DNA from: Octopus sinensis
Taxonomy: Eukaryota
Direction: 5' to 3'
Assembly: GCF_006345805.1 (NCBI RefSeq)
Contig: NC_043010.1
Span: 20,832,001-20,896,000, forward strand
DNA length: 64,000 bases
The translations under genes were made by a program, and so were the position numbers. The notes below the pieces were generated by a model that saw only the letters and a list, made by a program, of their open reading frames with translations, had not been told where the DNA came from and ran no database searches. Shown here piece by piece: positions 1,050 to 61,763 of this stretch (positions within the stretch are counted from its first letter, which is position 1; each line of letters opens with the position of its first letter).

Positions 1050-1202
1050 GTTTAATGGTTTTATTTTTGTACACATATGTTGCCTTCCAAATGGTTTCTA
1101 ATATTTTCATTGGCGCTACTGTCTACGATAAATGACTTTTGTTCATTATTAAAGATTATTACATATTTTAATTGCTTCTTTTTGTTTTGTTTCTGTTGAC
1201 AG
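1050..1202 (+). promoter_or_regulatory. Conserved acceptor-proximal intronic block and 3' splice site, copy 1
   Basis: TTTGTACACAT.TGTTGCCTTCCAAATGGTTT...CATATTTTAATTGCTTCTTTTTGTTTTGTTTCTGTTGACAG, recognisable before all four exons; TTTAAT branch-like motif about 30 nt before the AG. Confidence 0.85.
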
Positions 1203-2123
1203 ATTTATTCCACGGTAACAATTACGTTTATTATACTTTCCGTAATATCTTTCATCGTAGTTACTCATCCTTGCTGCCGAATACAAGGCGATCGGGATTT
1301 TTTTGGAATGGTACACTTAAACGAAACGAGGGAGCAGGAATTTACCTCCATGCCTCATCCTGCGTTTATTGTAATTGATTTAGTTTGTCTCGCATTCTTT
1401 ACATGCGATTTGGCAATCAAATACTTCAGTTATCCAAACAGGAAGCTTTTCTTCATAAATGTATTGAATCTTGTGGATATTGCTTCGGTCTTACCTGATT
1501 TTATCGCTATTTTTATTAGCACTACACTGGATGTAGAAAAGGCCAATGAAGTAATGCACTACGTCAATATTTTAGGGTTATTTCGTTCCCTCAGGATTTT
1601 CCGATTGGCACGTTACGTCCCAGGATTGTGGATTTTGTTCTACACATTCAAAGCCAGTATCTGGGATTTGTTGTTGATGAACGGCTTTATGATGGTCGGT
1701 ATGATTGTATTTGCGACTTTAATTTATCATGCAGAAGATGATAATTTCAACAATATTCCTATTAGTCTGTGGTGGGCGCTGGTCACTATGACTACAGTTG
1801 GTTATGGAGATATGTTCCCATCAAATTTCTTTGGCTATATAGTTGGTTCCCTTTGCGCTATCACCGGCGTGTTAATGGTTGCTTTCACTGTTCCGATTAT
1901 TGTCAATAATTTCCTCATGTATTACACGTATTACATACACATTCAATCCAAACAAGAACTAAAGAGACGTCGGGAAAAACATAAGAAAAACGTTGAAAAA
2001 ACTGAAGAAGATAGCAAGGTTGGGGAAAGTGAAGAAGATGGTAACGTTGAGAAAAATAAAGAAGATGACAACGTTGAGAAAAAGGAAGAAGATGGCAACG
2101 TTGAGAAAAAAGAAGGAGGATGA
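1203..2123 (+). CDS. Shaw/Kv3-related K+ channel terminal coding exon, copy 1 (S1-S6 + C-tail, no T1 domain)
   Basis: Polypyrimidine tract + TTGACAG acceptor (AG 1201-1202). Phase-0 reading IYSTVTITFIILSVISFIVVTHP is in frame with ORF 1308..2123. S4 LFRSLRIFRLARY, pore WWALVTMTTVGYGDM, S6 AFTVPIIVNNFLMYY. The THP, PHPA and NFxMYYxH motifs match the Shaw/Kv3 pattern. Confidence 0.93.
   Translation: MYSTVTITFIILSVISFIVVTHPCCRIQGDRDFFGMVHLNETREQEFTSMPHPAFIVIDLVCLAFFTCDLAIKYFSYPNRKLFFINVLNLVDIASVLPDFIAIFISTTLDVEKANEVMHYVNILGLFRSLRIFRLARYVPGLWILFYTFKASIWDLLLMNGFMMVGMIVFATLIYHAEDDNFNNIPISLWWALVTMTTVGYGDMFPSNFFGYIVGSLCAITGVLMVAFTVPIIVNNFLMYYTYYIHIQSKQELKRRREKHKKNVEKTEEDSKVGESEEDGNVEKNKEDDNVEKKEEDGNVEKKEGG
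1989..2123 (+). repeat. Coding 27-nt tandem repeat x5 (NVEKxEEDx) in the copy 1 C-tail
   Basis: NVEKTEEDS/KVGESEEDG/NVEKNKEDD/NVEKKEEDG/NVEKKEGG*. Confidence 0.9.
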
Positions 2124-2439
2124 TAAACGAAAAATTGGATGGGTCAACGAAAGAAGCAAGATGAGAGTAGTCACCGATTCTTCAAGAGATACATGTACAG
2201 TTACAGTGAGTACAGCCGCAGAACGTTTAAATCAATACGCGCGAAGTTAACTTTCTAATCCTCCATTGTCAAACATCGATAGTCGCAAGCGATTGCATTT
2301 GGGTATGGCTAGAAGTTTAACGTCGGGCATTACTAACAAACAAACGAAAAATGGACAGTATCAGTTAAGAGATCCTTTTAAGCATCAGTTCAGAGACCCT
2401 AAATTTCAGCATTCTGCAAACATTATTGAGATATTTTAG
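2124..2439 (+). pseudogene. Out-of-frame relic of the ancestral C-tail after the copy 1 stop
   Basis: The +1 frame reads VTVSTAAERLNQYARS*LSNPP...KRLHLGMARS...NKQTKNG, alignable to the copy 2 and copy 3 tails. Confidence 0.75.
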
Positions 2440-3479
2440 ACGTTGCCGTCCATTTTAAGGGTGAGAATTCACATTTCGCCTCTGAACAAGATATAAATAC
2501 TATGAAAGCATTCGCATTATAAGACATTATTATTACCATTATTATAATTACTGGGGTAGGTCAAACTAGTGCAAACCGTAGAATGCCGGACGAATCGCTT
2601 TCCTTAATTAACTTCTTGCACTGAAATCCCGGTAAGATCGTATTTAATTTGGTCTCTCTTGGGTCGATGATTTCATTAGCTACAATTAACTGGAGTCGAT
2701 TCTTATAAACTACATCACATTCAATCACACAAAAGTAAGCATCAGATATGATGGCAGTAGTGATGATGATGTTGATGACGATAATAATAAAAATAACACT
2801 TTAATTTAATCACCAAGTCTAATATGCCAAAGAAAAGGGGCTAGTCGAATATATACACCGTAACACGTGACCAGTAGCTTATTAAAAGCAAAGTTGACCT
2901 GGGTAGGGTTTGAATTCCCTACTTAAAGGGGCCCCGAAAAAATGCTTTAAAATACTTTTTACCCACCACTATAATCCTATGTAAGAGGAATTCATTCAAT
3001 AAGATAATAAAAAAAACTACACATTCTGTACATAACACATGATCTAACATCATAGCATCGGTCATAGTCTAATAATATAACATACGACATAAATTGGCAC
3101 TCCGTCGGCGATGACGACGAGTGTTCCAGTTGATCCAATCAAAAGAACAGTTTACTCGCGAAATTAAGATGCAAGTGGCTGAGCACTCTACAGACATGCA
3201 TACCCTTAACGTAGTTCTCAGGGAGATTCAGTGTGGTATAGAATGGGAAAAGGCTGGCCCGTTTGAAAAATTCATTTTTGACCGTTGAGTGGACTGCAGC
3301 AATGTGAAATAAAGTGTCTTGCTCAAGGACACAACATGCAGCCTGGTCCGGGAATCGAAGTCGCGACGTTACGAGATCGTGAGTCGAATGCCCTAACCAT
3401 TAAACCACGTTATAACATCCAACCTAGCCTAACATAATAGCATCCGACATTATAATTTGAACAACATATGTTAACCTCA

Positions 3480-4100
3480 CTCCTCACTTCTTTGTTTATA
3501 ATATAACACACTAACAGAACACTTGCCCTACACAATCACAGTCCGATATTAAAACACACCACACATAGATAACACTAACAAGAAGGGATTCCAGTAAGGA
3601 GGAAACCACGGAACAGAATTGGGGGTAGAAACCTCGTGCAGTATCTGGGATTGCTATGCTTCATAAAAAGCTTTAAAAGGTCTTCGCCACCCCTTTAATA
3701 TATTATATTACCAGACTAGGCTCATTTCGTCTTGTCAATTTCTCTGCTCCTACCCTCCTTATCTCATACGTCCACACTAGGGAGCCGCACTTTTTTCTCA
3801 GTCCTTAGCTTGGTGTTTAAATTGTACTGAAATAAAGTGATGCGGGATGAGCTATCAGTTGCATCCACAGCACAATTTCCCTCACCACGGCCGCTAAACA
3901 AAGGAAAACTAGGCTGATTTGCATGAAATATGCATTCCTTGCCATCTAAAGAGATAAAAAAAAATCCGGCTTTCCAACTTCTCTCCCGGGCTGGGGGAGC
4001 ACATGGCAACATGGTCAATTTTTAAGCACCCACCTCCTTGTTCCTTCTGCTAGATATATTTTTTGTGATATCAATACGTTTTATTTGATTCCTAGCTGAA
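3480..4100 (-). mobile_element. L1/Tx1-like 3' remnant related to 6170-7030
   Basis: Minus-strand pieces (CAVDAT, FQYNLNTKLRTEKKVRLPS) align loosely to the 6354/6454 ORFs. Confidence 0.45.
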
Positions 4101-4587
4101 GTCTGTCGTTTGGTGTGTTTTAGACGGTGAGTTTATCAAAACCGTTTTCAAATTGAATATTTTGTCTGTTCAAATGTTATCAAATTCTTAATCATCCTTT
4201 TGGAATTCGGTGTAGTTGAAGAATTCGTCTGAGACTAATTGCTCCGGTTCTTATGCTTTTGTTGTTGTTGTTGTTGTTGTTATTGTTATTGTAGTTCTTT
4301 TTTTGTTGCTGGTTTATTTATTTCTGTTACTGTTTTTTTAAAAATTCTATCATTCCTTAGTTTTATTGCTGTTGTTGTTGTTACATTAGTTGCTGTTGTT
4401 GTTATGGAATTTGTTGCTGTTGTTGTTATGGAATTTGTTGCTGTTGTTGTTCTCTTTGTCTTGTTGGCTGTTTTATATATTGTCTTTTTTTTTGTTTTTG
4501 GTCATATCTTCTTCGTTTTCTGCTTGTTTATGTACCGTTTAAGTTTAACAATCAGTCTACATGATTTCCTCTTTGTGATTGTTCCTT

Positions 4588-4724
<137 letters not shown>

Positions 4725-5415
4725 ATTTTCGGAATCTTTGCGGTCTTCTTTGATGTCTTCCGCATTCCATTTGAGGAGTAAGAGCAATAGAAAATGGAAA
4801 AATTAGATACGACAGACAAGAATTCTTGTGGTGTTCAGGGGGAACACCATTATCACCATCACCGCCTCCATCACCGCTGCCGCCGCCTCGACGACGACCA
4901 CCATCACCACCACCAGCAACAACAGTAATAATCCTTCCGTCTATAGGTACACGGTCTGAAATTATGCGTCGATCACATCGACCCCAGTGCGCAACTGGTA
5001 CATATTTAATCGACCCCGAAGAGACAAAAGGCAAAGTCGGCCTCGGTGGAATTCGAACTCAGAACGCGAAGACAGATGAAATGTCGCTAAGCATTTTGTC
5101 CGGCAAACTAACCACCTTAATAATGCTAATAATCCTTTCTACTGTAAGCACAAGGCCTGAAATTTGGGGGGAAAGTTTAAGTCGATTACATCGACCCCAG
5201 TGTTTCACTGGTACTTAATTTATCGACCCCGAAAGGATGAAAGGCAAAGACGACCTTTGCAGGATTTGAACTCAGAAACGTACAGGCTGACGAAATACCG
5301 ATATGCATTTCGTCCAGCATGCTAACGATTCTGCTGAATTTGAACTCAGAACGCAGTAGCAGACGAAATATCACAGCATTTTACTCGACGTGCTAACGAC
5401 TCTGCCAGCTCGCCG

Positions 5416-5463
<48 letters not shown>

Positions 5464-5474
5464 TAATAATAATA

Positions 5475-5531
<57 letters not shown>

Positions 5532-5533
<2 letters not shown>

Positions 5534-5626
5534 TACCTTTATCAGACGGGTAGTCATGATGGGTATATTGGGCTTCGTATATTTTACCCCAGTGTCACTT
5601 TGATGGCATGCACTGCTCTCTCACTC

Positions 5627-5627
<1 letters not shown>
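5532..5627 (+). mobile_element. 5'-truncated copy of the 39171-39728 element
   Basis: TGTACCTTTATCAGACGGG...CTCTCTCACTC is the reverse complement of about 39172-39266. Confidence 0.8.
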
Positions 5628-5720
<93 letters not shown>

Positions 5721-5952
5721 TCAAATTTTTGCCACAAGGGCAGCTTGGGGGAGGTGGGGATGTGTTAATTACATCGACCCCAGGGTTTCCACTGGTACTT
5801 ATTTTATCGATCTCGAAAGGAGGAAAGGTAAAGTCAATCTCGGTGGAATTTGAATTCAGAACGTAGCGACGGGCGAAACACCGCTGAGCACTTCGTCCAG
5901 CCTTCTTGATAATAATAATGATGATGATGATAATAATAATAATAATAATAAC

Positions 5953-5989
<37 letters not shown>

Positions 5990-6169
5990 GTAATAGTAAT
6001 AATAATAGAATACCTAGATGCATTCACTCTCAATCCCAACAGAAGCAACGAAAAACAAATAGAAACAAAGTCAAGTAACTCATAAAAGGACGAGAAACCG
6101 CCATGTTGTTTGCGTGGTTATTCATTATGACTTGGAATCTGAAAGTTTTCTATTTCGGGTCATGAAACA

Positions 6170-7030
6170 GGCGGTCTTAATGGTGGAGTATCGTGTGAGC
6201 ATAATCGTTTCCTGAACGCGCTTTTACGCAACTCGACCCCTTGACGGATCAACAGTCTTGGATCAGGCGTAGACTGAGGCAGGGAGCTTAGCACGTAGAG
6301 TGTATCCAAGCACTCACAGCCCTGGATAATTTCCAGAAATCCCTGTCCTAGCAATGCTACCGGGTGTGCTGTCAGTCGGGCTTGTGCGAGATGCACGCGG
6401 AGCGATGAATCCGTTCTGCATGCTCTCGTACTGTGTCCGCGCATTGCTGACTTGTGAGCTTTATCGAACAATTATTGTCACGTGTAGGACGGATTCAGCT
6501 ATCGTCCGGGTCCACTGTGAAGATCGCCGCGCCCTCTTCCTTTGGACGGGAAGGGAGGGTAACTTTTCTCTGTCAGGTGGCTATGGCAAAAGAGGTTGTG
6601 TGGTGGACGCGATTGAAAGGGTTGGAGACGAGTACCTTCCTCTTTGGCCAAAGCCCCATTGACTTTTTCATGTTCCACCTGAAAAGGAAAGTGAGGCTGG
6701 AGAGGGAGGTACTCTCACCCAGTAGGTTCGTTGAAAGGTGGGTGACTGTAGCAAGAATGGCCCACGTGAATGGGTCTACTCTAAGTGTGCGCCTATAGTT
6801 CGGATGGAAGAGAGAAGAGAGGGCGTCTTCCTGAGGAGGCTTTGGTATTAAGGGGTCCAAAGTGCGTGAGGATTCTTTGGTCACCTTACGGTAGAATTCC
6901 CCACTATTGGAGAAGCATATTGTTGATCTCTTTGTTAATCGTGTTTGTTTGCTGTTTACACGTTTAACCTCACTGTCCCTCGTCTGTGCATCGTTCTATG
7001 TTTTGTGTTCGGCTCTGGTGGCCAATAAAG
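6170..7030 (+). mobile_element. L1/Tx1-like ORF2 3' remnant
   Basis: AKEVVWWTR...FHLKRKVRLEREVLS..FVERW C-terminal pattern, disrupted, followed by a 3' UTR with AATAAA. Confidence 0.55.
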
Positions 7031-8009
7031 TCCCTATTTCCACCAAGTGACTGAGTATTCTTGTTTGAAATTAATCTTTATATAAGTTTGCTGCGACAAA
7101 ACTGGCCCTTCAAATGAACAAGCTGTTCTACCCAGTTTTCTTCAACTCACCTTCATACACACAAAACGATGGTATAACCGTTGGGCAGGGTTTGCCTCAG
7201 TCAATTACTGTGGACCCAATCATCGAGTCTGCTGACGTAACTAAATTGATGCATATGGTTTTCAATAATCGGTTTGGATAATTAGTGAATATCTAAGAAC
7301 ATCCTGGTCATGTGACAAGGGTGGGTGCCACGGTCGGACCTCTGTTGGCCGGGCAAAGCGAGGATCATCTTGAAACGAAATATTTCCCGATCGAAATCTT
7401 GAAAACCATTTTTAACACACGTTCTCTAACAGTACTCTCTCTGCACGCAGCGCATATCTTCCAACACGTTTCTGCTGCTTTCTTTCCTTCTTCTTAAATA
7501 AAAGCATTAAGTGATTATACTGTTCTCTTTGGTTCCCCATTTGCAGGGTGGTCCCAAGCACACAAAATACAAACTCTTTCGTCACAAGTTCACGTCAAAT
7601 ATCTAACATGTGTGCATGCGCAAGGGACAAATTGAAGTTAGCTACTTATTAGAGTGCTTGAAGTGTTATGTCGACAAAGCCCTATATATATATATATATA
7701 TATTGTAGTAGTAGTAGTAGTAGTACTAGTAGTAGTAGTAGTAGTAGTAACAATAATAATAATAGTAATAATAGTAATAATAGTAGGGAATATAATTCCA
7801 AACTTACAGGGAAAAATTCAATTTAGCAATTCTAAATCAAATTTCACAATATATAATATATGTATATAATTTTGAGAAAAACCTCTATTAAACAATACAA
7901 TAATGAAAGATGTTATTCACACCATATAGAATACATAAACTATACAAGATATATTCTTTTCTAGATGGTATAGGAATATCTTTCAAAGATGAATTCCAAT
8001 ATATATATA

Positions 8010-8090
<81 letters not shown>

Positions 8091-8983
8091 CATGCATATC
8101 ATGTGTGTGTGTGCGCGCGCAAGCAGATATTGAAGAGGCAATGTTTACGCGTTGGTTGCGATTTGATTGATAGAATGTGAGATCAATAAACTATATGACA
8201 CTCATTAAAGTTATTGATTTTTGCTCTCATTTTACGTAGAGGTGTTACATACGAGAAAGAAGAATGGTAAAACTCAAAGCGAACCTCTACTGCCCCTATC
8301 TTCGAATACATCATTTCGTGAACCCAAGAAACTTCCAGGACATTTGTGAAGGCTGATTCAGAGCAAAAGAAGCAGACGTCGAAGATGCGCCATACTTTCT
8401 GTCTGCTATGTTCCGAGATGTATCGCATGCTATGCTTTATTTCGATTGAATCTATATTCGAGCACAAAAGACCCTTTTCGGTAGTTATTTATCAATAACA
8501 AACTAATACGAAACTGTACGAATGACTTTTGAAAAAAAAGAGAAAATATATTTTGTTATAACAAGTTATATTCTGATATTTATTTTCGATTGAGTAATAT
8601 TTGAAACAAGGCACAGGAAATACGAAGGAAAATAAAATGTAAAAACGAAACGAGCAATAAAATAAAAGTCTGTCTACTGAGGAGGATACGGTGTTATTAA
8701 TTATAAATTGTGTTTGTTTAGGTGAGGCTGAGGTATGTGTCTTTTATCTTTGAATTGTTTCAATCATTGGGTTGCAGTCACGCTGGGGCAAAGCCTTGAA
8801 CGATTTTGTTGAACAAACCCACCCCGGGACTTACTGTTAAAGCCTGGTACTTAGTCTATCGCACTCTCTTTATCGAAATACCAAGTTACGCGGATGTAAA
8901 CAAACCAACGCCGGTTGTCAAGCGGGAGTGGGAGGGAGATAAACACACGCACATAAACACGCATATGGATAGATGTATATATA

Positions 8984-9355
8984 TCTCTCTCTATATAAAC
9001 GGCAGTTTGTCTGTGTGTCTGTTTGGTTGTACCCTCACTCTGACCACGGCTTTCAACCGATTTTGATGAAACTTGACACACACATAGCCCAATGTCATAA
9101 TTCAAAACTAACGCAGCGAAAATTTTGAAAAGTTCCCCCAGTTCTGAAAAAAATCGATAAATTCGACATGGGGTCGAGAATCAGAAACACAAACCACAGC
9201 CTGTCTAGGGGACGCAACTCAACCTTTTTAACTCTCAAAAAAATTTACCATCATTTTTTCCCCATTTTTTTTGCTATTTTTTGGCTATAACTCTCTAAAA
9301 ATGCTTTATAGTTATTTCCCTTACAAACCCGAGCAACGCCGGGCGATACTGCTAG
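8984..9355 (+). mobile_element. Non-autonomous Helitron
   Basis: 5' TC(TC)nTATATAAA start after A; subterminal hairpin CCCGAGCAACGCCGGG (9328-9343); 3' CTAG followed by T. Confidence 0.75.
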
Positions 9356-9387
<32 letters not shown>

Positions 9388-9439
9388 TGTTTTCTACACC
9401 ACCTGTCTTCGTCTTTTGTTTTCTTGCAAATTGTCTCCC

Positions 9440-9495
<56 letters not shown>

Positions 9496-9693
9496 GAGTA
9501 ATTGAATGAATTATCTTATTAAGGATAATTCGAAAGATAACCGATACCTGGGTAGCAAATTCACATCAGAAAGAACACGGTTGAAGCTACGTCCATAGGG
9601 CATAGACTACGTGTCTTCGTGCGGAAATTTGTATGTTTATTTTAAAATTATAAGTATATGAAAGAATGGAGTTGAACGACTAGTTAACAAGTA

Positions 9694-9790
9694 TCCTTTA
9701 TTCTCGACATATGTTTCGAAGGCTGCATATTCCTAATTCCGAAGGAATAAGGAGTACATTATGCAGATTTCTCATCAGGAAAATCAAGGA
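9694..9790 (-). ncRNA. Type I hammerhead ribozyme motif, mirror copy
   Basis: Reverse complement of 9901-9997 in the left arm of the palindrome. Confidence 0.8.
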
Positions 9791-9900
9791 ACTTATGTCG
9801 ACATCAAAATGCACAAAAAACTTTTAGCTGACCGCTCTCAAGGAGCTCCTTGAGAGCGGTCAGCTAAACGTTTTTTGTGCATTTTGATGTCGACATAAGT

Positions 9901-9997
9901 TCCTTGATTTTCCTGATGAGAAATCTGCATAATGTACTCCTTATTCCTTCGGAATTAGGAATATGCAGCCTTCGAAACATATGTCGAGAATAAAGGA
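9901..9997 (+). ncRNA. Type I hammerhead ribozyme motif (Penelope-like, extended stem II)
   Basis: Stem I TCCTTGATTTTC/GAGAATAAAGGA; CTGATGA 9913-9919; stem II GAA..CTGCATA...TATGCAG..TTC; GAAA 9974-9977; palindromic stem III ACATATGT; GTC cleavage triplet ending at 9985. Confidence 0.8.
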
Positions 9998-10689
9998 TAC
10001 TTGTTAACTAGTCGTTCAACTCCATTCTTTCATATACTTATATGTATAAATATATATATATATATACAACGGGTTTCTTTCAGTTTCCGTTTATCAAATC
10101 TACTCTCAAAGCTGTAGTCGGCTTTAGTTGAGGGCACGCGCTCAATGTGCTACACGGTGGGACCGAACACGGAACCATGTGGTTGGGAAGCAAACTTCTT
10201 ACCACACAGCCACATCTGCACCTGAGAGAAAATTGTGTAAAATGAGTTACAATAGTTGAAAAAAAAAGTGGGAGATAGGCACATGCGTGGCTGAGTGGGA
10301 AGAAGCTTACTTCCCAACCAAATGGTTCTGTGTTCAGTTCCACCATGTAGCACCTTGGGCAAGTGCGCACGAGTGAATTTTGTAGGCAGAAACATGTTCC
10401 GCATTATGACGACGCAACTTCGCCGTCTGCGTGACTGACCAGAACAGCGTAGCTCACTGTCTGATACTGCTTGCTGTGTTTGTTCGCTATTCATCAGTAG
10501 GGAAACAGCCCACTTCTCACTTGGAAGTGTCCGCCACGACATTTCCCCCCTTTGAAATTTTTTTCCTCTTTCACACAATATCATTGTTTTTTTTAATCTT
10601 CAGTCTACATTGTTTACCGGTAGCGCTACTAACACAAAGCAACTTGACGAAAATCCTTCACACGGACTTACCATTATTATTATTATTAT

Positions 10690-11337
<648 letters not shown>

Positions 11338-11707
11338 GTTTATCTTCCAGACAGAATAATTTTTCTCTTCAGAATGCCGCAGGTAGTACCAGTCTACATC
11401 GTTAATCTGTAGCGCTGCTTACACATAGCGAACTGACAGAAATCTTACTAACGGAGTTATATTATTTTTCACTGTGTGTAGTCCAGTTCTGTGTTAGTCT
11501 AATCTGTTACTGAGTGTTGTTCGACTCCTCGTCGCCACTGATATGTCCCGCATTATGACGACATAACTTCGCCATCTGCATGAAGCCCGAACAGCGTACT
11601 TCACTGACTGGCCTTGCTTGCTGTGTCTGTTCACTGTTTATCAGTAATGGAACAGCCCACTTCTCACTTGGGGGTGTCAACCAAACAAAACTGAAAGAAG
11701 CCCGTCG

Positions 11708-11774
<67 letters not shown>

Positions 11775-14700
11775 GTGTGTGTGTGTGTCTGTGTTTGTTT
11801 CGCACCACCGCTTGAAAACTGGTGTTGGTGAGTTTACCTCTCCGTAATCTAGCGGTTCAGCAAAAAGAGAATGATAGAATAAGTACCCGGCTTCAAAAAC
11901 AAGTCCAGGGTTGGTTTATTCGATGAAAATCCCTCAAGGCGGTGCCCCAGCATGGCAGCAGTCAAATAACTGAAACAAGAGAAAGGATAAAACATAGATA
12001 CCAACCAGTGACACTTCCTTGCTTATCAAAAGGACCAGATGTTGGCAAGAATCCGATAGAAATACATTTATAGATTCTGTTTGTGTAAATGGATTATTTA
12101 AAACAGGAATCACAGTTTCTGTGATCTTTCCAGGATCTGCTTGCCTGGTGAGTAGACATGAGAAAGTTAACCTTAATACCGGTGACTCGTCCCTAAAATA
12201 TCCAAGGATCAAATACTTGGGTGAAACCGGAAGCTACATTAAGTCTAATATTCTTTTATACATTAAAGGCTAACCCTTTGAGCCATGTATACTTCTTCTA
12301 TCGTCTCCCTGCTTTCCTTTTTCAGGTTGCTGTTTATTTTGTATGTAGGCTTCAACGTATCTAACAAAACAACGTGTTTTGTTGATCTTTTATCTTGAAG
12401 AAGAAAAATATCACTTATTGATATATGTCTTATATCGTGTAGCCATATATTGTTTAAATATGACATATATTACTTATAGATATCTACCATAAATATCATG
12501 TCTTATAGATAGTAAAATAGTATCTTATTGAAGGTATGTGGCTTTAAAGACATGATTATTATATTTTCTCAAATTTGATGGGAGCAATTTTTCGTTTTGT
12601 GAGGGGAAAAATTGGGCCATGTTTGCAACATGAAACTTCATTTAGAAACGTTCGATTTTCTTCATCTCTTTGTTCCCATGGTTGTAGATGATTCAACATT
12701 CCTTTTGTCCAGAGAAACATGAGATATTTTCTTTTAATATTTTCCCCGTTTCAGCCACATTTATGGTTTCGTTATCTAACTTGAAATGTGTGGATATCAG
12801 CCAGCATCATTAGGCTTTGTTTGAATGCTTTGCAACTTTTCTCAAATGTATTTATTCTCCAATCCCCCTCATTTCTCTACTGATTTAATGTCCTGTGTTT
12901 CTTAAACGTCTTAACTTTGCTACCATGAATCAATTTTTCAGTGGTGTTTTCTGAATTTTTGTTTTGAATCCTTCAAATTGTTACAATATCCTTCTTCTTT
13001 TCGATTATTTCCAATTACATGTTTTTGTTTCACAATGGCTCCTTTGTTTGCTTTCAAGGTTTTTCTATGATGTCATCACAGTCAGCGTTGGCTTCATTTT
13101 TGTTTGTTTCAAATCCAAGAGATAACAATTTTTGTCTCCCTTCCGCGTTTCCATACAAATGCCAAAATACAAAAAACAAAAACAAGTTACAGTCTTCATT
13201 CCTAACGACTGTTGAACATATTTCACGCCTTACAAACTTTATTTTAGTTCCTACACACAAGCTACAGTGTACAAAAGTTAGCATATACTACTATATATAT
13301 TTCTTTACTACCCACAAGGGGCTAAACACAGAGAGGACAAACAAGGACAGACAAACGGATTAGGTCGATTATATCGACACCAGTGCGTAACTGGTACTTA
13401 TTTAATCGACCCCGAAAGGATGAAAGGCAAAGTCGATCTCGGCGAAATTTGAACTCACAATGTAACGACAGACGAAATACCGCTAAGTATTTCACCAGGT
13501 GTGCTAACGTTTCTGCCACCTTAACATATATTACTATATCGATATAATTTATGGCTCATGCAATTATTTCTGACGAACACTTCACTCTAACAGAGTGCTT
13601 GTAGTTTATATATTATAGCTTTGTCGAGGTGTTGGCAGGCTGCGGCATCAGATATCCTGAGTTTATTATGGTGTTTCGTCGATACTGTTATTACAGCTAG
13701 TTAATGAAAATGTGTTTCTTGGCTGCATGAAGAAGTAACTGAATGACATCCGCGAACATTTAACAGAAAAAACTTATTGTCGAACATAAAGATAAATTGC
13801 GTTTCCCTTTTACAGTTAACAACAATCATGATTATATACTGGAAGAGACATACTGCACTGAGATTTGCTCAACATATCTGAAAACAATTGTGCCACATTC
13901 GTGGTAACGGAAGTTACTGGTTATCTATCTGCATCATCTGTCTTAGCCGTCTTCATGAGTCGTCTGTCTGGGCTGTCTGTTGGCAAGAGAGGGGACGCAT
14001 ATCACTCATTCGTCTTTCGACACTCTGCAAAAAGTTTAACGCAAAAGCAGCTTTTTACAGGGTACAAAATGGAGATTCTAGAAAACTGAATCAAGCTACG
14101 GCTGGTTTGTTGCTTAACGGGTTGATCACGTGAAACTATTGTGGTTCGGTCGTGATGTCTGACAGGTTACCTCACGGTAGGTTTCAAATCATCGCAACAG
14201 CTCATGCATTTTTATAATACATTCTTTACTAAACTGAATTTTATGTCTTTATATTTCTGTTTAATTTCTTTTACAATACATTTTCGAAGTTTGTATTCCT
14301 TTAGAACATTTTCTGTCATTCACATTTAGCTGTGCTAGATTGTTTGGCCTTTGTTTGCTCTGTTCTAGTGTGAAATCCGCCCTGTTGTGTTTGTGGTGAG
14401 ACGCAGAAGGGGAATGTGACTAATGGAGGGAAATAAGAGGAAGAAGCAACTATTGATCGATTAATGTTGTAGGAAGAAGCACATTGAAACATGCAGACCC
14501 GGTATGGTTTGCTTAGAAGATAGCTAGAGTTGCTAAAGTCGCCTAAAAGCCAGGAACCGTGGGACGTTTAGGTTTGCTGTCGAAGGACAGATGCAGAATT
14601 TCGCACAGTTTCACCCTGCTTAGTTTCATGGGGGAAGGCTTGGATTTCTTTGAAATTATGTTAGATAGTGCAGTGTGATCGAATTTGGGACCACGTGACT

Positions 14701-15924
14701 GAGAAAGGAACTTCTTAAACACACAGCCATGGTTATATCCAGATTGTGTGATGGACTGAGATGTGATCCGGGATCCATAGAAATTGACGGTAATTTATAT
14801 CGGCAAATGTTAATCCATAAAACTTTGTGGATAAAAATTAAATTACAGTGTGATAATTCATTGTGAGGAGCAAACAAACCAAACGTTTCGGATAACCGTT
14901 CTACTTCATATATCGAAAAGAGTGAATTTTTTCTCCTCGCAGCAAATAAGTCTGCCGCAGTAATTTTTTTTAATGTTTTTGTATCTTCGATTATTACTTT
15001 CCTTTAAATACCCTCCTTAATTTTATACAATTTATATTAAATGCTTTTCTGCTCCAGATTTATTAAGTCATGTTCTCCGAGGTGTTTTAATTTGTTTACG
15101 GTCTAATTACAGGAGGAAAAATTAAACCGCAAACATTTATGGGAAGCTTCAAGACTGGGGATGATGGGAAGGGATGAGAACACCCTACAAGGGTTACTGT
15201 CGTAGAAATTAGCGTATCAAGTTATCAGGATATCTTCAGTCTGAAAACCTGATACCAATACTTGCGATTTTAGTGGGGTCTCTTAACGGTATTCGGGTAG
15301 CATGCAGTGAAGGAACTAAAACCTAGCAACTAAATTCATCTCTGCTTGTCACAATGTGTTGGAGAGTCACGCTTTAAAACGACCTTAGCTATGGAACAAA
15401 ATCAAAAACAGTCATCCAACTGTTGTGTGCATGCGTGACTCTGTGTGTGTGTGCACGCGCGCACGGTACGAATGCTACTCATCTTTTAATTTTTACTTGA
15501 TTTAGTCATTTGATTGCGGCCATGCTGGGGTACAACTTAGAAGGGTTTCAGTCAAACGAATCGACGCCAGTACTTAATTCTTAAGCCTGTACTTATTCTA
15601 TCGATTCCTTATAAAATCTTTCTCCTGTTCTATAAATGGGTTTCAAATTTTAGCACAAGGCCAGAAAATTTTGATGAGGGTCTAAGTCGATTACATCGAC
15701 CTCAGTGTGTAACTGGTATTTATTTTAAGGATGAAAGGCAAGGTCGACCTCGGCGGAATTTGAACTCAGAACATAAAGACGTGAGAAAGACTGCTAAGCA
15801 TTTTACTCCTCGTACCAACGATTCTGCCAGCTCACCACCTTTTCTTATTCTAAAACTTGGAAATAGAATTATACTATCAAATGTAGGGCATCAAAGCATT
15901 TAGAAAAGTTATATATGTATATCT

Positions 15925-16154
15925 ATTTCTTTATTGCCCACAGGGGGCTAAACACAGAGGGGACAAACAAGGACGGACAAAAGGCTTAAGTCGGTTACAT
16001 CGACCCCAGTGCGTAACTGGTACTTAATTTATCGACCCCGAAAGGATGAAAGGCAAAGTCGACCTCGGCGGAATTTGAACTCAGAACGTAACGGCAGCCG
16101 AAATACGGCTAAGCATTTCGCCCGACGTGCTAACGATTCTGCCAGCTCGCCGCC
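15925..16154 (-). mobile_element. Same SINE family
   Basis: Reverse-complement match. Further copies near 4930-5418, 5720-5900, 13300-13522, 15645-15840, 42640-42845, 54565-54755 and 63170-63385. Confidence 0.88.
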
Positions 16155-17678
16155 CTATATGAATATCATGCAGCTGTTCAGACAACGTCGATTTGATGAA
16201 GGGAATGAGTTAATATCCGGCACATGCATTTGTTCACCTTAACAAATCCCCTGTGCCGGCTGTTTAGCAAGAAATTGCGGAACCATCTCTCACGAACTAC
16301 GAGAGACTACTATCATCTTACAACTGGATGGTCAAGCCTGGAATGCATTTCATAAGATATCCATAAAGTTACGACTGGCCTAATTACAACAACTAGAGAT
16401 GCCCCACCCCCAACAAAGTGACCTCTATGTGGTTACTCGCTCTGCTAGAAATAACAACCAAATTTTTCTTAAATCGCGGTCTTATCTAAAACTATCCAAG
16501 AAAAGAGGGGTTAGTCATGGATGGAACGCATTTGAATATATGTCTGATCTGTCATGGCCGATCATTTTGATGTTTTAACACTCCACTCTGTTGTCAATAT
16601 TTTACTGAGTCTAAAGTGTCTACGTTCTCTGATCCACGAAACATAGAAACGACCATGCTCTGAGGATGTCAAATACGACTGCAACCCGGATAGAATTGTC
16701 CTCCATATGCATCAAAGATCTATTAATTTGCTATTAGTCCTCCCCCACCTCATTTCATGAATATTTGTAATTCTAATTCATTAAAATTAGAGAACCGTTA
16801 CTGCTCTTCTATCTTCCTCATTTTTTTAAATTAACGCGTTCGGCTAACGTTTTCATTTCCCCATTTTTTGTCGTGTTTTTTATTTTTTCATTTTTCTTAG
16901 CTGTTAGTCAAAGAATAAAGAGCAGCATTTCTAGCCATTTATTTTTTCGAAAGCTTTAAGACTGGAAAAAGAAAATATTACCTTAAAGTTGTACCTAAAA
17001 ATTTAAAATACGAAAATACCGAGGATAAAAATATCGCAAAACGCTTGTTGCTCCGCACTAATTCTTTTAGTACCTTCTTGAGTCTGAAACGCGAAAGTCC
17101 TCGGAGGGATTTGAAGTTATTGGACAAAGAAACGGGACATTTACCGAAAAGTACCACCCGGCTCTGGTGCATTATTACATCTGCGATAAAAGGGTAAAAA
17201 ACAAAGGTGGCCTCGGTAGGATTCGAAATTAAGTTGCAGAAACATTACCGCAAAGCACGTTGTCTTAAGCTTTAATGACTCAGATAATTCCTCTTACTGA
17301 AGGAATAATTCTAACTTTGGTATTCCGGAATTACCTCTCCTAAGTAAAATTGATCGAATTTACGCAGCGAGTCACTTATTTGCCTCTAAGAAAATCAAGA
17401 ATGCAACATAAGTATAAGTTACTATACATGAGGTAATAATCTGAAAGGCAATGGAATATAACTTTACCTCCGACCAAAACAATGGCAATTTCGTAGCAGT
17501 TCCACCTACCTGTTCAGAAATTATTGGGAAGCCATGATTAAAGTTATCTCGAGCAATTTGATTACAATAAAACGCATTAAGGCTTTCTTGCTGTCTGATA
17601 TCAACATCTGCTGAATTTGTCTAAAAGTGGGTAACCGTCCACCTTGGATTGTTAATTTCTTTGAGCCTAATTTCTATA

Positions 17679-17912
17679 CCTGTTTCTTTATTACCCACAA
17701 GGGGCTAAACAAAGAGGGGACAAACAAGGACAGACAAACGGATTAAGTCGATTACATCGACCCCAGTGCGTAACTGGTACTTAATTTATCGACCCCGAAA
17801 GGATGAAAAGCAAAGTCGACCTCGGCGGAATTTGAACCCAAAACGTAACGGCAGACGAAATACGGCTACGCATTTCGCCCGGCGTGCTAACGTTTCGGCC
17901 AGCTCGCCGCCT
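17679..17912 (-). mobile_element. Same SINE family, with target-site duplication
   Basis: Reverse complement of the 59055 element; CTAATTTCTATA on both sides. Confidence 0.9.
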
Positions 17913-18888
17913 TCTAATTTCTATATCATTGAGCAGTTTCTTCAAGTGCTCAATCAAACCCTAAAATACCATTCTCTTGCAGATCGTCCTCAATAGTAGC
18001 AAGAACTGAAACTGCATCATCTTACGCCCAATATTTATTCTAAATAAAGTTTTCCAAACAGAACATTAGGAGGCTCTTTGAAAATTAAAGGATTTGTATT
18101 TCTACCTTGTAGCTGTATGTTTAGCAAATTTAGTTTATCAAATATATCTGTAAGGTAAAAAACGTCCCATTTGCTTGCTAGGAGTATCTTTTTTTACTCA
18201 GCTATTTACTATTCAGAAACATTACAACACTGTCTCAAAGTCCAACAAAACGACGCAGGCAATTACCTTTAGAGATTGTTATCGGTTTTATGAACTTCAA
18301 AGCAGTAACATAATACTTAATCCATCCAAGACTTTCCAATGCCAATTTGAAACATGATTGATCAATAATGAATTATTATCGAAGTATTAAATAAACCCTT
18401 TTTTCCTTTCACGACAGATTTTCAATTGCAGAAAGTAAATTGTCTGTATGTGCGTGTGTATATATTTTAGTATATAAATTTCGAAGTGTTACAGACAGTA
18501 ACAGAAATATTTTAGGTGAAACCAGATTGGTAGTTGTGCGGTTCTTTTCATTTGTCTGTGACACCATCTACTTCCAAAGCTTTTCTATGGACCGACTGAA
18601 CTTTAGGGTCATATGATCCCAGTTCGGCAAACAACACTGTTTTAAGATGGACTTTTAGAACTTCCTTCTTCAATTTGTCTTTTCTTTATCTGAGACGATA
18701 AGGTCAAACTTGAGGTAGAGTTGGCTCATATTTCTTGTTGGTCCAACGACCAAGTTGAAAGGAAGGGGTTCGAGGATATTCTTCCTGGAATACAATATAG
18801 ACGTATAAAAAAAGGTCTTTTATTATTCCTCGCCACTAATACTCTCCCCGATGCTGTGGTAAAAGTTGGTTCATGGATTATTACATAC

Positions 18889-19041
18889 GTTTAATGGTTT
18901 TATTTTTGTACACATGTGTTGCCTTCCAAATGGTTTCTAATATTTTCATTGGCGCTACTGTCTACGATAAATGACTTTTGTTCGTTATTAAAGATTGTAA
19001 CATATTTTAATTGCTTCTTTTTGTTTTGTTTCTGTTGACAG
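18889..19041 (+). promoter_or_regulatory. Conserved acceptor-proximal intronic block and 3' splice site, copy 2
   Basis: 153 nt with 4 differences from 1050-1202 by my alignment. Confidence 0.85.
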
Positions 19042-20217
19042 ATTTTTGGCATGATAACAGTTATGTTTATTATACTGTCCGTAATGTCTTTCATCGTAGC
19101 TACTCATCCTGCCGGCCGAATAGAAGGGGATCGTGACATTTTGGGACGATTACACAGAAACAGAACGAAATTAAGTGTGCCTCATCCTGCATTGGTCACA
19201 ATCGATTTTATTTGTCTCGCATTCTTCACATTTGATTTAATCACAAGGTTCATCACTTGTCCAGAATGGAAAAAATTCGTTCGGGATACTTTGAATATTG
19301 TGGATTTCATTGCGATTCTTCCTGATTATATCGACATTATTGTTGTCTACACAGTTGAGGCAAATGTTGCATTGGAAACCATGCACTACGTGAATTTTTT
19401 AAGAATCTTTCGTGCCCTCAGGATTTTCCGCTTGGTCCGTTATGTTCCAGGCTTGTGGATCATGCTGTACACATTCAAAGCCAGTTTCTGGGACTTGTTG
19501 TTGATGATTTGTTTTATGAATGTCGGTATGATTATGTTTGCCACTTTCATCTATTACGCTGAGGAGGAAAATTTCCCCAATATTTTCATTGGTATGTGGT
19601 GGGCACTGATCACTATGACTACGGTTGGTTATGGAGATATGTCTCCATCAAGTAACTTAGGGTACCTTGTTGGCTCGTTATGTGCTGTCACTGGTTTGTT
19701 AATGGTCGGTTTCACTGTTCCTATAATCGTCAGTAATTTTGTCATGTACTACAAACATATGCAATCCATGCAAGAAGCAGGGAAACGTGAGGAAAAAGCT
19801 CAGAAAGATTTGGATCTGCTGCAAAAGTTGATAGAAAGTGAAGAAACAAGTGAACTAACAACCGAAGACATGGGACCTGAGACTTCGTCGGAAAAGCGTT
19901 CTAATGAATCAGAAGAAAAACGTAAACAACATCTGAATTCGTCAAAATTTCCTCCGCCATCTTACGACAGTTTGCCATCTCGCACTAATCACCGGCGCTT
20001 GCGTGTAGGAATAGCTCGAAATTACATGCTTACCAATAATAATAAGCAGACGACAAATGGATCACATGTATTAAAGAAACCTCCTAAAGAAACTGGGAAT
20101 TCAGTACCAAGCAAAAATAATCGGGATAATTCAGACGTTCATCAGCATATGAATGATGAAAACTCAAATATCAACTGTGGACCAGAGATAAACGATCTTG
20201 AAACATCTATGTTATAA
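19042..20217 (+). CDS. Shaw/Kv3-related K+ channel terminal coding exon, copy 2
   Basis: Acceptor AG at 19040-19041; ATT TTT GGC precedes the ATG at 19051 in frame. S4 LRIFRALRIFRLVRY, TTVGYGD, FTVPIIVSNF. Longest intact C-tail of the four. Confidence 0.95.
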   Translation: MFGMITVMFIILSVMSFIVATHPAGRIEGDRDILGRLHRNRTKLSVPHPALVTIDFICLAFFTFDLITRFITCPEWKKFVRDTLNIVDFIAILPDYIDIIVVYTVEANVALETMHYVNFLRIFRALRIFRLVRYVPGLWIMLYTFKASFWDLLLMICFMNVGMIMFATFIYYAEEENFPNIFIGMWWALITMTTVGYGDMSPSSNLGYLVGSLCAVTGLLMVGFTVPIIVSNFVMYYKHMQSMQEAGKREEKAQKDLDLLQKLIESEETSELTTEDMGPETSSEKRSNESEEKRKQHLNSSKFPPPSYDSLPSRTNHRRLRVGIARNYMLTNNNKQTTNGSHVLKKPPKETGNSVPSKNNRDNSDVHQHMNDENSNINCGPEINDLETSML

Positions 20218-45390: not shown

Positions 45391-46473
45391 ATTTATGGTA
45401 TGATAACAGTTGCCTTTATTACACTGTCCGTAATATCTTTCATCGTAGCTACTCATCCAGCTGGCCAAGTAGAAGGGATTCGTGACTTTTTGGGACGAGT
45501 CCGCAGTAACAACACGGAATATCTGGATCTATACCCCACTGTGCCTCATCCGGCATTGATCATAGTCGATTTCATTTGTCTTGTATATTTCTCGTGTGAC
45601 TTGTTTTTCAGGTTCATCACTTGTCCAAGCTGGAAAAAATTCGTGAAGAATCCCTTGAATTTTGTGGATTTCGCTTCACTTGTGCCTGATTATATCGACA
45701 TTATCGCTGGTTACGCAGTTGAGGTTACTCTAGCAATAAAAATAATGCACTACGTGAAATTTTTAAGAATCTTTCGTGCCCTCAGGATTTTCCGCTTGGT
45801 TCTTTATGTCCCGGGCTTGTGGATCATGCTGTACACATTCAAAGCCAGTTTCTGGGATTTGTTGTTGATGGTTTGTTTCATGTCAGTCGGCATGATTGTA
45901 TTTGCCACTTTCATGTATTACGCTGAAGACCATAACATCACAACTATTCCCTTGGGTTTATGGTGGGCGCTGATCACTATGACTACGGTTGGTTATGGAG
46001 ATATATATCCAACAAGTAACGTCGGATATCTAGTTGGCTCGTTATGTGCCGTCACTGGTTTGTTTATGGTCGGTTTCACTGTTCCTATTATCGTCAATCA
46101 TTTCGTCATGTACTACAAGCATATGAAATCCATGCAAGAAGCACGAAAGCGCGACGAAAGAGCCAAGAAGGAAATGGATAGAATGCGAAAGTTGATAGAA
46201 GAAGAAGAAGCTGAAACTGAGTTTCAGCATCCGTTCGAAGCGGAAAAAGAACCTCAAAATTCTTCGAAACGCAAAAATAGAGTTACAGTGAGTGTAACAC
46301 AAGAAAGCTCAAATCAATATGGACAAACTTCTCTTTCAAATCCGCCACCTCCTTCCTTTGAAAGTTTATCAAACACCAAAAGTGACCAGCGATTGCGTTC
46401 TGGTATGGCTCGAAGCACAATGTCCGGCAATAACGATAACCAAACGGTAAATGGATTTGAAACTAAAATGTAG
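45391..46473 (+). CDS. Shaw/Kv3-related K+ channel terminal coding exon, copy 3
   Basis: Acceptor AG at 45389-45390; ATT TAT GGT ATG in frame with ORF 45400..46473. S4 KFLRIFRALRIFRLVLY, TTVGYGDIYP, FTVPIIVNHF. Confidence 0.95.
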   Translation: MYGMITVAFITLSVISFIVATHPAGQVEGIRDFLGRVRSNNTEYLDLYPTVPHPALIIVDFICLVYFSCDLFFRFITCPSWKKFVKNPLNFVDFASLVPDYIDIIAGYAVEVTLAIKIMHYVKFLRIFRALRIFRLVLYVPGLWIMLYTFKASFWDLLLMVCFMSVGMIVFATFMYYAEDHNITTIPLGLWWALITMTTVGYGDIYPTSNVGYLVGSLCAVTGLFMVGFTVPIIVNHFVMYYKHMKSMQEARKRDERAKKEMDRMRKLIEEEEAETEFQHPFEAEKEPQNSSKRKNRVTVSVTQESSNQYGQTSLSNPPPPSFESLSNTKSDQRLRSGMARSTMSGNNDNQTVNGFETKM

Positions 46474-47817: not shown

Positions 47818-48248
<431 letters not shown>

Positions 48249-49636: not shown

Positions 49637-49707
<71 letters not shown>

Positions 49708-49722
49708 AATAATAATAACAAC

Positions 49723-49756
<34 letters not shown>

Positions 49757-52168: not shown

Positions 52169-52209
<41 letters not shown>

Positions 52210-52990: not shown

Positions 52991-54550
<1,560 letters not shown>

Positions 54551-59289: not shown

Positions 59290-60813
59290 GTGTATGGGTT
59301 TAACCAACTAGAGATATGTGTGGAAAGAATCTATAAAAAAATGATAATCTAGTCAGACACTGATAACGATTTGTCAGATAGTGATTGGATTAGCAGATAA
59401 TGTGGATGGGCATGAGCATCCACAATGTGCTTGGATAGTATGTTCTTAGCGGATAGAGAAAGTGTAGAGTGTTCACATTTTAAAACAGTTAAGCTATACT
59501 GACCATAAATATGTGAGCTGTTCGGTCGCTTAAATAAAATTCGTTTGACAGGAATCGGATTATTGGGAGGTGAGCATGCTTTTACCGCTGCTCAGAGACT
59601 ACGGAAATTTCAGCTGCAGTTGACAGGATGATCATCAACAAGCAGTGGTGGGGCAGGCTGGAACGGACGATTAGATATGATTCGACAATGTTTAGTAAAA
59701 AGCTAGAAATAGAGACTAATTAGAGTAATTTGTTAGCGAGCTTGAAGAGGTTGTTAGCAAAGACATCACAAGCGACTTGATAGTCGAGAGAATGGCTATT
59801 GGCTATTTCTTCCGTGTGAAATATGAAAGCTGCGTTGCTAGAGATAGGGTTCATGTGCTAAAACAGGGAGAACAAAAGTCATCTTATGTGCTCGAGGGTT
59901 AGAGGTGTAACAGATGAACAAAGCCATATTTCAGTCTTTGATGGTCAGGGAGGGTGCATGCTAATCGCCTCCAAGCAATTGTATACGGCGTTCCCAGTAG
60001 CAGTGTAGTAAGCTCGACTCCGGAGTGAGTGATTGGTCAGAGACGCTAATGGACGTTAGTAGCTAACTCGACGGTTTGCCGCGACCCTTAGTGGGGGCCA
60101 CAAGAAAGATTTGTAATAGCAATTGACATGTGAGAGTTAGTGAATGGCTGCTCGGGGGACAAATTGCCTGGTTTGGATCGCCTGATCTATGCATCTTAGG
60201 ATTGTAAACAAGCTTTATCAAAAGAAAAGTAATCGCTTCCTTGGCGTTACTGAGAGATTTATCAACCTGTGATATCTAATTGAGGTAAGACGGTTTACAT
60301 GCCTAAGTTTAAATAATTTAGTGATGGGTTCAGCCTGGATCTCTAACAACATATCCACTGCTAAATGTGCTACTCAATAACTACAACTTATATAAATATA
60401 GCTAACAGGGTGTATCGCACGAAAGCATGCTACGCTTTGAATAATACTCGTGTATGGGTTATAGCAGAGCTGCAATAACTAATATTGAAGGATGTTGGGA
60501 TGACGGGACAAGCAAATAGGAAACGGCGATATCCATGCTGCGTAGTGGGTCGTTAATAACGTAAACAGAAACGAACTTCAAGTTTAATTATTCTCAGGCA
60601 GAAGATCTGGTCTGAACATCTGCAATATGGTGAAAAACCCATAAAGGCATAACAAGGGGCCAGCACTTTTCTAGTCATACCTCACCAGAAATACAACAGT
60701 CTTACCATAAGCTCTTCAGCACAATTTCTGTGTAATCATTTCCACTTGAAAAGGCAAAGGTCGGTCGAAGACTGAGGTGAAAACCACTTGCCCAGATTTT
60801 TGTATGGTTTCTG

Positions 60814-60947
60814 TTTGTACACATACGTTGCCTTCCAAAGGGTTTCTTTTTTCTTTGGTGTCATTGTCTGCAATAAATGATTTTTGTTTAATATTAATGA
60901 TTGTAACAAATTTTAATTGCTTCTTTTTGTTTTATTTCTATTGACAG
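60814..60947 (+). promoter_or_regulatory. Conserved acceptor-proximal intronic block and 3' splice site, copy 4
   Basis: Same block (TTTGTACACATACGTTGCCTTCCAAAGGGTTT...CTATTGACAG); homology stops against unrelated sequence just upstream. Confidence 0.8.
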
Positions 60948-61763
60948 GTTTATGGCATGGCGGCAGTTGTGTTTGTTATACTGTCCGTATTGTCTTTCAT
61001 CGTAGCTACTCATCCAGCTTGCCGAGTTCAAAGGAATCATGGTTTTTGGAAACGATTACACAGTAACAACACGGAACTCTGGGATATGTACCCCATTGCA
61101 CCTCATCCAGCATTGATTATAATCGATTTTATTTGTCTAGCATTCTTCTCATGTGACTTGTTCTTCAGGTTCATCACTTGTCCAGAATGGAAAAATTTCG
61201 CGAAGAATTCACTCAACTATGTCGACTTCGTTGCGATTCTTCCTGATTATATCGACATTATTGTTGTCTACACAGTTGAGGCAAATGTTGCATTGGAAAC
61301 CATGCACTACGTGAATCTTTTAAGGATCTTTCGTGCCCTCAGGATTTTCCGCTTGGTCCGTTATGTTCCAGGCTTGTGGATCATGCTGTACACATTCAAA
61401 GCCAGTTTCTGGGACTTGTTGTTGATGATTTGTTTTATGAATGTCGGTATGATTATGTTTGCCACTTTCATCTATTACGCCGAGGAGGAAAATTTCCACC
61501 ATATTCTCATTGGTATGTGGTGGGCACTGATCACTATGACTACGGTTGGTTATGGAGATATGATTCCAACGAGTAGCGTAGGAAAACTTATTGGTTCTGT
61601 TTGTGCTATTGCTGGTGTGTTAATGGTCGGTTTCACTGTTCCTATAATCGTCAATCATTTCTCCATGTACTACAAACACATGCAATCCATGCAAGCAGCA
61701 CGAAAACGCGACGAAAGAGCCAAGAAAGAAATGGATAGGGTTACAAAATTGACACAAGAGTAA
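60948..61763 (+). CDS. Shaw/Kv3-related K+ channel terminal coding exon, copy 4 (C-tail truncated)
   Basis: Acceptor AG at 60946-60947; GTT TAT GGC ATG in frame with ORF 60957..61763. Intact S1-S6 and TTVGYGD; early TAA relative to copy 3. Confidence 0.92.
   Translation, partial: VYGMAAVVFVILSVLSFIVATHPACRVQRNHGFWKRLHSNNTELWDMYPIAPHPALIIIDFICLAFFSCDLFFRFITCPEWKNFAKNSLNYVDFVAILPDYIDIIVVYTVEANVALETMHYVNLLRIFRALRIFRLVRYVPGLWIMLYTFKASFWDLLLMICFMNVGMIMFATFIYYAEEENFHHILIGMWWALITMTTVGYGDMIPTSSVGKLIGSVCAIAGVLMVGFTVPIIVNHFSMYYKHMQSMQAARKRDERAKKEMDRVTKLTQE

What the first reader, a model, noticed from the sequence alone, without database searches (positions are those of the whole stretch)
1050..19155. 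Intron upstream of the acceptor is far more conserved than the exon it serves
Seen: 1050-1202 and 18889-19041 differ at 4 of 153 nt, whereas 15 of the first 38 codons after the acceptor differ in amino acid, with only 4 purely synonymous codon changes. The block is recognisable before copies 3 and 4 too, and before copy 4 it is about all that survives of the upstream flank. Inference: either a splice-choice element (protein-binding, or a docking/selector RNA pairing as in Dscam1), an RNA-editing structure, or a conversion tract ending at the exon boundary together with diversifying selection on S1 and the S1-S2 loop.
Basis: partly seen in the sequence, partly recalled or inferred. Interest (0 to 1): 0.75.

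Follow-up and report, generated by a model that had tools for sequence, protein, structure and literature searches.

The report
One octopus gene, four potassium channels
The near-identical intron pieces are most likely a patch of DNA copied between duplicated exons (gene conversion) rather than a splicing switch, but they sit in an unusual octopus gene whose single shared front exon is likely spliced to any one of four different, complete potassium-channel cores.

Summary
Counts confirmed: 4/153 intron differences; 15/38 amino-acid and 4 synonymous codon differences. The locus is a Shaw-like Kv gene: one T1 exon 49 kb upstream and four S1-S6 last exons. An RNA contig joins T1 to copy 3; database models join it to copies 1 and 2. 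The block is best explained by gene conversion. Copies 1 and 2 lie across the deepest split of the array yet share the most alike block. For copies 2/3, 2/4 and 3/4 the distal block diverges like synonymous sites (23-25% vs 18-33%). A similar-sized tract links exons 2 and 4 with species-specific residues. In a diverged octopod the block differs by about 4-6% plus indels, like the 3' flank. No docking site, fold, Rfam match or dispersed copy was found. S1 is not diversifying faster than the rest of the exon; it lacks synonymous changes. Weak constraint on a 32-nt core remains possible (p=0.03, post hoc). The four-core gene layout is the more interesting result.

The parts
1050..1202 (+). Intron block before copy 1; likely conversion tract shared with copy 2; last ~50 nt hold branch-point-like, pyrimidine tract and AG acceptor
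   Evidence: 19 consecutive agreeing polymorphic sites, permutation p=0.0002
1066..1097 (+). 32-nt core, least variable part of the block in all four copies; possible weak splice element
   Evidence: 3 variable columns among copies 1, 3, 4; scan p=0.028 at 32 nt, 0.06 at 26, 0.41 at 20
1203..2123 (+). Last exon copy 1: S1-S6 and acidic C-terminus, phase-0 acceptor; lacks the first S4 arginine
   Evidence: joined to T1 in an O. bimaculoides model (P0007)
2399..2630 (+). 3' flank of copy 1, 88% identical to the 3' flank of copy 3 (46463-46694); probable further conversion patch or constrained UTR
18889..19041 (+). Intron block before copy 2
19042..20217 (+). Last exon copy 2; the form annotated as Shaw-like isoforms X1/X3 with T1
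19310..19510 (+). Approximate exonic conversion tract shared with copy 4 (about 61230-61430), S3-S4 linker to S5
   Evidence: 2/150 differences, run of 42 sites p=0.0002, three species-shared residues
45241..45390 (+). Intron block before copy 3
45391..46473 (+). Last exon copy 3; RNA contig joins the T1 exon end to its first base
60803..60947 (+). Intron block before copy 4; homology to the other copies ends just upstream
60948..61763 (+). Last exon copy 4, short C-terminus, stop position matches the O. bimaculoides protein

Best explanation
The block is most likely a gene-conversion tract that homogenised the introns before two duplicated last exons of one Shaw-like potassium-channel gene, whose single T1 exon is seen spliced to copy 3 and is likely spliced to each of the four S1-S6 exons. 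Shown: one T1 exon with a phase-0 donor 49 kb upstream, four intact in-frame S1-S6 exons, orthologues of all four in O. bimaculoides, mosaic similarity among copies. Inferred: non-allelic conversion of 150-250 nt tracts is tolerated in non-coding DNA and in shared parts of the channel, but is purged where it would erase copy-specific residues, so the tract appears to stop at the exon edge and leaks in only at silent sites. The last 50 nt are additionally held by ordinary acceptor signals. Exon choice is inferred to be ordinary competition between polyadenylation after a proximal exon and splicing to a distal one; untested.
For: (1) Tree conflict: the exon tree is copy 1 vs (2,(3,4)), supports 99-100, but the block groups 1 with 2: 2/103 distal differences vs 21-26% for the other five pairs. 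(2) For pairs 2/3, 2/4, 3/4 the distal block equals synonymous divergence: 0.25/0.27, 0.23/0.18, 0.24/0.33, p=0.89, 0.34, 0.16. (3) Conversion operates in this array: a second tract, exons 2/4, p=0.0002, with residues 108, 110, 112 shared by species rather than by copy; 2 of 6 pairs give a significant run. (4) Organism E (X15, about 10% diverged in exon 1): block contigs differ from the window by about 8/135 plus indels and a ~30-nt tandem duplication (read as copy 1) and 5/140 (read as copy 2), against 14/288 in the 3' flank, p=0.64 and 0.63. One site (1117) is shared by both E contigs against both window copies. Only about 1 site separates the copy 1 and 2 lineages before the species split, where 7-21 are expected, P<=0.006. 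(5) Amino-acid divergence in codons 1-38 is average, synonymous divergence is low. (6) T1-to-copy-3 junction in run X21.
Against: The block differs between species less than copy 1's synonymous sites do (13/275 vs 11-21/87, p=0.02 or lower), and for pairs 1/3 and 1/4 it is also below synonymous divergence (0.23 vs 0.50, 0.21 vs 0.45), so some constraint or a lower mutation rate in AT-rich DNA is not excluded. The 32-nt core is nearly invariant in four copies and 36/36 identical in one E contig. The cross-species test rests on one diverged organism and short contigs of depth 3-11; assigning them to copies 1 and 2 is inferred (they could be alleles of one copy), and two differences near contig ends were inferred from counts, not listed. 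The junction is one contig in one run whose RNA status is a guess, with 26 nt on the T1 side; T1-to-copy-4 has no record, T1-to-copy-1 only a gene model.
Confidence: 0.7

Rival explanations
1. Part of the block, chiefly the 32-nt core at -137..-106, is a protein-binding splice or 3'-end element kept by selection in all four copies; conversion only adds the extra copy 1/2 identity.
For: Core has 3 variable columns of 32 against 27 of 93 in the distal block, scan p=0.028; it lies near where copy 4's homology begins; identical over 36 nt in one organism E contig; block below synonymous divergence between species.
Against: Significance depends on window size (p=0.41 and 0.06 at 20 and 26 nt) and is post hoc; 0 differences in 36 nt is unremarkable at 5% divergence; organism E carries a tandem duplication and 8 changes beside it; absent before the single S1-S6 exon of the C15 paralogue and the other 11 Kv exons checked (best non-repeat E=0.002 in an unrelated place).
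Confidence: 0.2
2. The block is a selector that base-pairs with a docking site near the T1 donor (Dscam1 / PGRP-LC type) or with its exon to guide A-to-I editing.
For: Layout fits (tandem 3' variable exons, similar upstream elements). Copy 4's block pairs with its S3-S4 linker at -30.4 kcal/mol, 2 of 60 shuffles.
Against: No shared complement above shuffles in 49.9 kb from the T1 exon to copy 1 nor in 8 scans near the donor and after copy 4 (best 1 of 10); no inverted BLAST match beyond low complexity in 224 kb; no fold; no Rfam match; the copy 4 duplex is not kept in copies 1 and 3 and is one of 4 tests.
Confidence: 0.06
3. The intron is ordinary and recent, and strong positive selection drove S1 and the S1-S2 loop apart.
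For: 15 amino-acid vs 4 synonymous codon changes; S1-S2 loops differ between species at 5-12 of 21-26 residues; copy 1 vs organism E shows 28 nt in non-synonymous codons vs 11 synonymous among 39 listed.
Against: The copies are old (pS 0.44; orthologues in O. bimaculoides); pN in codons 1-38 equals the rest (p=1.0); copy 1's S1 is conserved across species (1/26). No codon-model test was run; conversion would bias one.
Confidence: 0.04

Closest known systems
Concerted evolution opposed by selection: Leptodactylus ATP1A1 R/S duplicates (bioRxiv 10.1101/2020.08.04.234435, passages) and poeciliid LWS-1/LWS-3 opsins (PMC5714168, passages)
   Same: Old tandem duplicates homogenised at silent or non-coding sites while distinguishing residues persist; conversion can skip the neighbouring copy (here 2 with 4).
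   Different: Here the converting units are alternative exons of one gene, and divergence over most of the exon is far larger.
Drosophila 3' variable regions PGRP-LC, CG42235, Pip (PMC6191721; abstract, outline and one results section read)
   Same: A constant upstream exon spliced to one of several tandem-duplicated 3' cassettes, each preceded by a similar intronic element.
   Different: There the elements pair with a conserved docking site at the upstream exon boundary, proven by compensatory mutants; no such complement was found here.
Shaw-like Kv models XP_036364619.1 / XP_036364621.1 (O. sinensis), XP_014769438.1, XP_052828570.1, UniRef A0A0L8HTU3, A0A0L8HTU5 (O. bimaculoides)
   Same: The same exons; T1 joined to copy 2 in both species and to copy 1 in one model.
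   Different: Copies 3 and 4 appear there as separate T1-less proteins; no T1+copy 3 or T1+copy 4 protein was among the 5 hits, whereas one search shows the T1-copy 3 junction.
Kv3/Shaw channels (human Kv3.1, PDB 7phh, E=1.8e-48; Kv1.2 and Kv2.1 follow at 1e-46)
   Same: T1, six transmembrane segments, S4 arginines, TVGYGD filter.
   Different: Belongs to a mollusc clade labelled Shaw-like; known Kv splicing (recalled, e.g. Drosophila Shaker, Kv3 C-termini) swaps ends or part of the pore region, not the whole S1-S6 core.

Membership tests
Non-allelic gene conversion tract | Local run of identity between paralogues beyond chance | tested here: met
   p=0.0002 for copies 1/2 (intron) and 2/4 (exon); other 4 pairs p=0.12-1.0
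Non-allelic gene conversion tract | Tract tree conflicts with duplication history | tested here: met
Non-allelic gene conversion tract | Species-shared states across paralogues | tested here: inconclusive
   Met for the 2/4 exon tract (3 residues); for the block only 1 site, from short contigs of one organism
Non-allelic gene conversion tract | Neutral rate between species | tested here: inconclusive
   Equal to the 3' flank, below synonymous sites
Docking/selector RNA pairing (Dscam1, PGRP-LC) | One docking sequence complementary to all selectors | tested here: not met
Docking/selector RNA pairing (Dscam1, PGRP-LC) | Compensatory changes across species; mutant rescue | not testable with these tools
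   No candidate pairing; no relative's genome served
Editing-complementary sequence | Stable duplex with the exon, kept across copies | tested here: not met
Editing-complementary sequence | A-to-G sites in RNA of the exon | not testable with these tools
   Only contigs, no raw reads with matched DNA
Dispersed repeat | Copies elsewhere in the genome | tested here: not met
   4 matches, all at the four acceptors (lower bounds)
Tandem alternative last exons (3' variable region) | One constant upstream exon, in-frame acceptors on all copies | tested here: met
   1 T1 and 4 S1-S6 exons in 224 kb (one 100-N gap 5 kb beyond the window)
Tandem alternative last exons (3' variable region) | RNA junctions from the constant exon to two or more copies | tested here: inconclusive
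   Copy 3 seen; copy 2 from RefSeq models and the contig's start point; copies 1 and 4 not seen in RNA
Shaker-family Kv channel | T1 (PF02214), Ion_trans, TVGYGD filter | tested here: met

The most novel reading that the evidence does not exclude
One octopod gene builds four different voltage-gated potassium channels by splicing a shared assembly (T1) exon to four whole S1-S6 cores, so that they can co-assemble in many combinations, and a conserved 32-nt intronic core before each exon steers the choice by cell type. The layout alone I put near 0.85; the probability given is for layout plus a functional core.
Probability: 0.2. Interest if true: 0.75.

Novelty: new variant of a known kind. Interest (0 to 1): 0.45.

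Why it matters
The block itself is a tidy but known phenomenon: conversion makes an intron look ultraconserved and makes an exon look positively selected. The gene matters more. The four cores differ at gating and pore-mouth sites in both species compared: copy 1 lacks the first S4 arginine, and the residue two after GYGD is F, S, Y or I/V (its role in TEA block and C-type inactivation is recalled from Shaker T449). A shared T1 would let them co-assemble. This is a route to channel diversity in octopods apart from RNA editing, current annotation lists copies 3 and 4 as headless proteins, and it can be tested directly by long-read sequencing and oocyte expression.

Tried and rejected
Docking-site scans: null level. 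Folding of each block: none. Rfam on 900-1400 at E<=5: 0 matches. Block-exon duplex: copies 2 and 4 beat 12 of 12 simple shuffles but only 53 and 58 of 60 dinucleotide shuffles, and the pairing is not kept in copies 1 and 3. Long AG-exclusion zone: first upstream AG at -50, -50, -78, -109, not shared. Repeat insertion before copy 4: 60560-60800 matched only itself, and no displaced flank was found in 47000-60810. Same layout in other molluscs: among 131 proteins held, only the O. bimaculoides pair shared a T1 and differed in S1-S6; the search was not built for this. Run search: no RNA holder listed. Of 8 RNA-labelled runs 4 were laid; X17, X18 and X20 gave no exon piece on the copy 1 stretches, which says nothing on expression. 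Organisms A-D are too close for rate estimates; one search showed 40 of 161 variant rows and 26 of 73 pieces, of which 39 rows were used (1692 left out, outside the contig). Literature searches (titles and abstract starts only) showed no paper on this gene; subscription journals and genome-paper supplements were not searched. Scan notes near this place and by words: nothing.
Full report
Observation. The counts are exact: 4 of 153 intron sites differ, and 38 codons give 15 amino-acid and 4 synonymous codon differences. The block occurs four times in the genome, each time ending at the acceptor of a Kv S1-S6 exon. Contigs from close relatives reproduce the copy 1/2 identity, so it is not a misassembly.

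The gene. A family search finds one T1 (BTB_2) exon near this place, at G000:C14:20783298, 49 kb upstream of the window. In 224 kb around it there is one T1 exon and four S1-S6 exons. The T1 exon ends in a phase-0 donor and all four acceptors are in frame. RefSeq models join T1 to copy 2; an O. bimaculoides model joins it to copy 1. A contig of run X21 (RNA by the tool's guess, depth 8.65) has the end of the T1 exon followed by the first bases of copy 3. It starts 30 letters before the point where copies 2 and 3 diverge, which is where an assembly graph would branch if both junctions were present; that second junction is inferred. O. bimaculoides has orthologues of all four exons; copy 1 against (2,(3,4)) is the deepest split, and a cuttlefish protein is sister to the whole array, so the duplications are likely octopod-specific.

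What the block is. Under constraint alone the block should be most alike in the youngest pairs. Instead it is almost identical in an oldest pair (2/103 in -153..-50) and differs by 21-26% in the other five. For pairs 2/3, 2/4 and 3/4 this equals synonymous divergence. Only the last 50 nt are low in every pair (4-14%), as expected for acceptor signals. A permutation test finds two significant tracts among six pairs: the block (copies 1/2) and about 200 nt of exon (copies 2/4), where three residues are shared by species rather than by copy. A third patch, 88% over 232 nt, links the 3' flanks of copies 1 and 3. The array is a mosaic.

Between species. Organism E is about 10% diverged in exon 1 (52/528). 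Its two block contigs share 1063-1092 and 1151-1181 and differ between; read as copies 1 and 2 they differ from the window by about 8/135 plus indels and 5/140, like the 3' flank (14/288). Placing the changes on branches leaves about one difference between the copy 1 and 2 lineages before the species split, against 7-21 expected, so the block was likely homogenised shortly before that split and has drifted since. Caveats: one organism, depth 3-11, copy assignment inferred, two sites inferred from counts. The block is still below copy 1's synonymous divergence (11-21 of 87 sites), so weak constraint or slower mutation in AT-rich DNA remains open.

The exon side. Amino-acid divergence in the first 38 codons equals the rest of the exon; synonymous divergence is what is low. 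Copy 1's S1 is kept across species (1 of 26 residues; 3 nt in 1152-1262 in organism E). This fits conversion leaking into the exon at silent sites while copy-specific residues are retained, as described for frog ATP1A1 (passages) and fish opsins (passages); splice-enhancer constraint near the exon edge (recalled) could contribute. The S1-S2 loop does change fast between species, but no codon model was run.

RNA-structure readings. No docking complement, no fold, no Rfam family. The best lead, copy 4's block pairing with its S3-S4 linker (2 of 60 shuffles), is not kept in copies 1 and 3. The closest layout, Drosophila PGRP-LC, is defined by such a pairing, so this locus resembles it in layout but fails that test. 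A 32-nt core is less variable than its surroundings (p=0.028, window-dependent) and is the one candidate for a real element.

Verdict. The finding as framed is mostly gene conversion (0.7). The surrounding gene, one T1 exon with four complete channel cores that differ at S4 and the pore mouth, was not found in five literature searches (listings only, open-access library) and is only partly annotated. New variant of a known kind; interest 0.45.

Noticed in passing
window 2250-2630, 46300-46700, 61850-62155: The 3' flanks of copies 1, 3 and 4 align with each other and with the end of copy 2's coding tail: the ancestral C-terminus was shortened differently in each copy.
   Followed up: partly
window 31376-35077 (+): LINE-like reverse-transcriptase element in several open pieces (longest 543 aa) between copies 2 and 3; its 3' 543 nt recur inverted at 10668-11210 at 97.6%.
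   Followed up: no
window 50326-53968 (+): Second, more decayed LINE-like element between copies 3 and 4.
   Followed up: no
window 46386 region / protein alignment column 138: Copy 3 has leucine at the fifth S4 arginine, where the O. bimaculoides orthologue has arginine; copy 4 of O. bimaculoides has arginine right after GYGD.
   Followed up: no
window 43655-44456 (-): Tandem 184-nt copies of the common SINE-like repeat found throughout the window.
   Followed up: no
P0011: Unnamed protein 71% identical to copy 1 and sister to the two Octopus copy 1 proteins: copy 1 exists in a more distant octopod-like animal.
   Followed up: partly
P0131: A gastropod model of 1476 aa fuses three tandem T1+S1-S6 units: this clade also duplicates as whole genes.
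   Followed up: no
L037/L038 (G000:C15:13602285-13622222): Closest paralogue has the same two-exon split but one S1-S6 exon and no block.
   Followed up: yes
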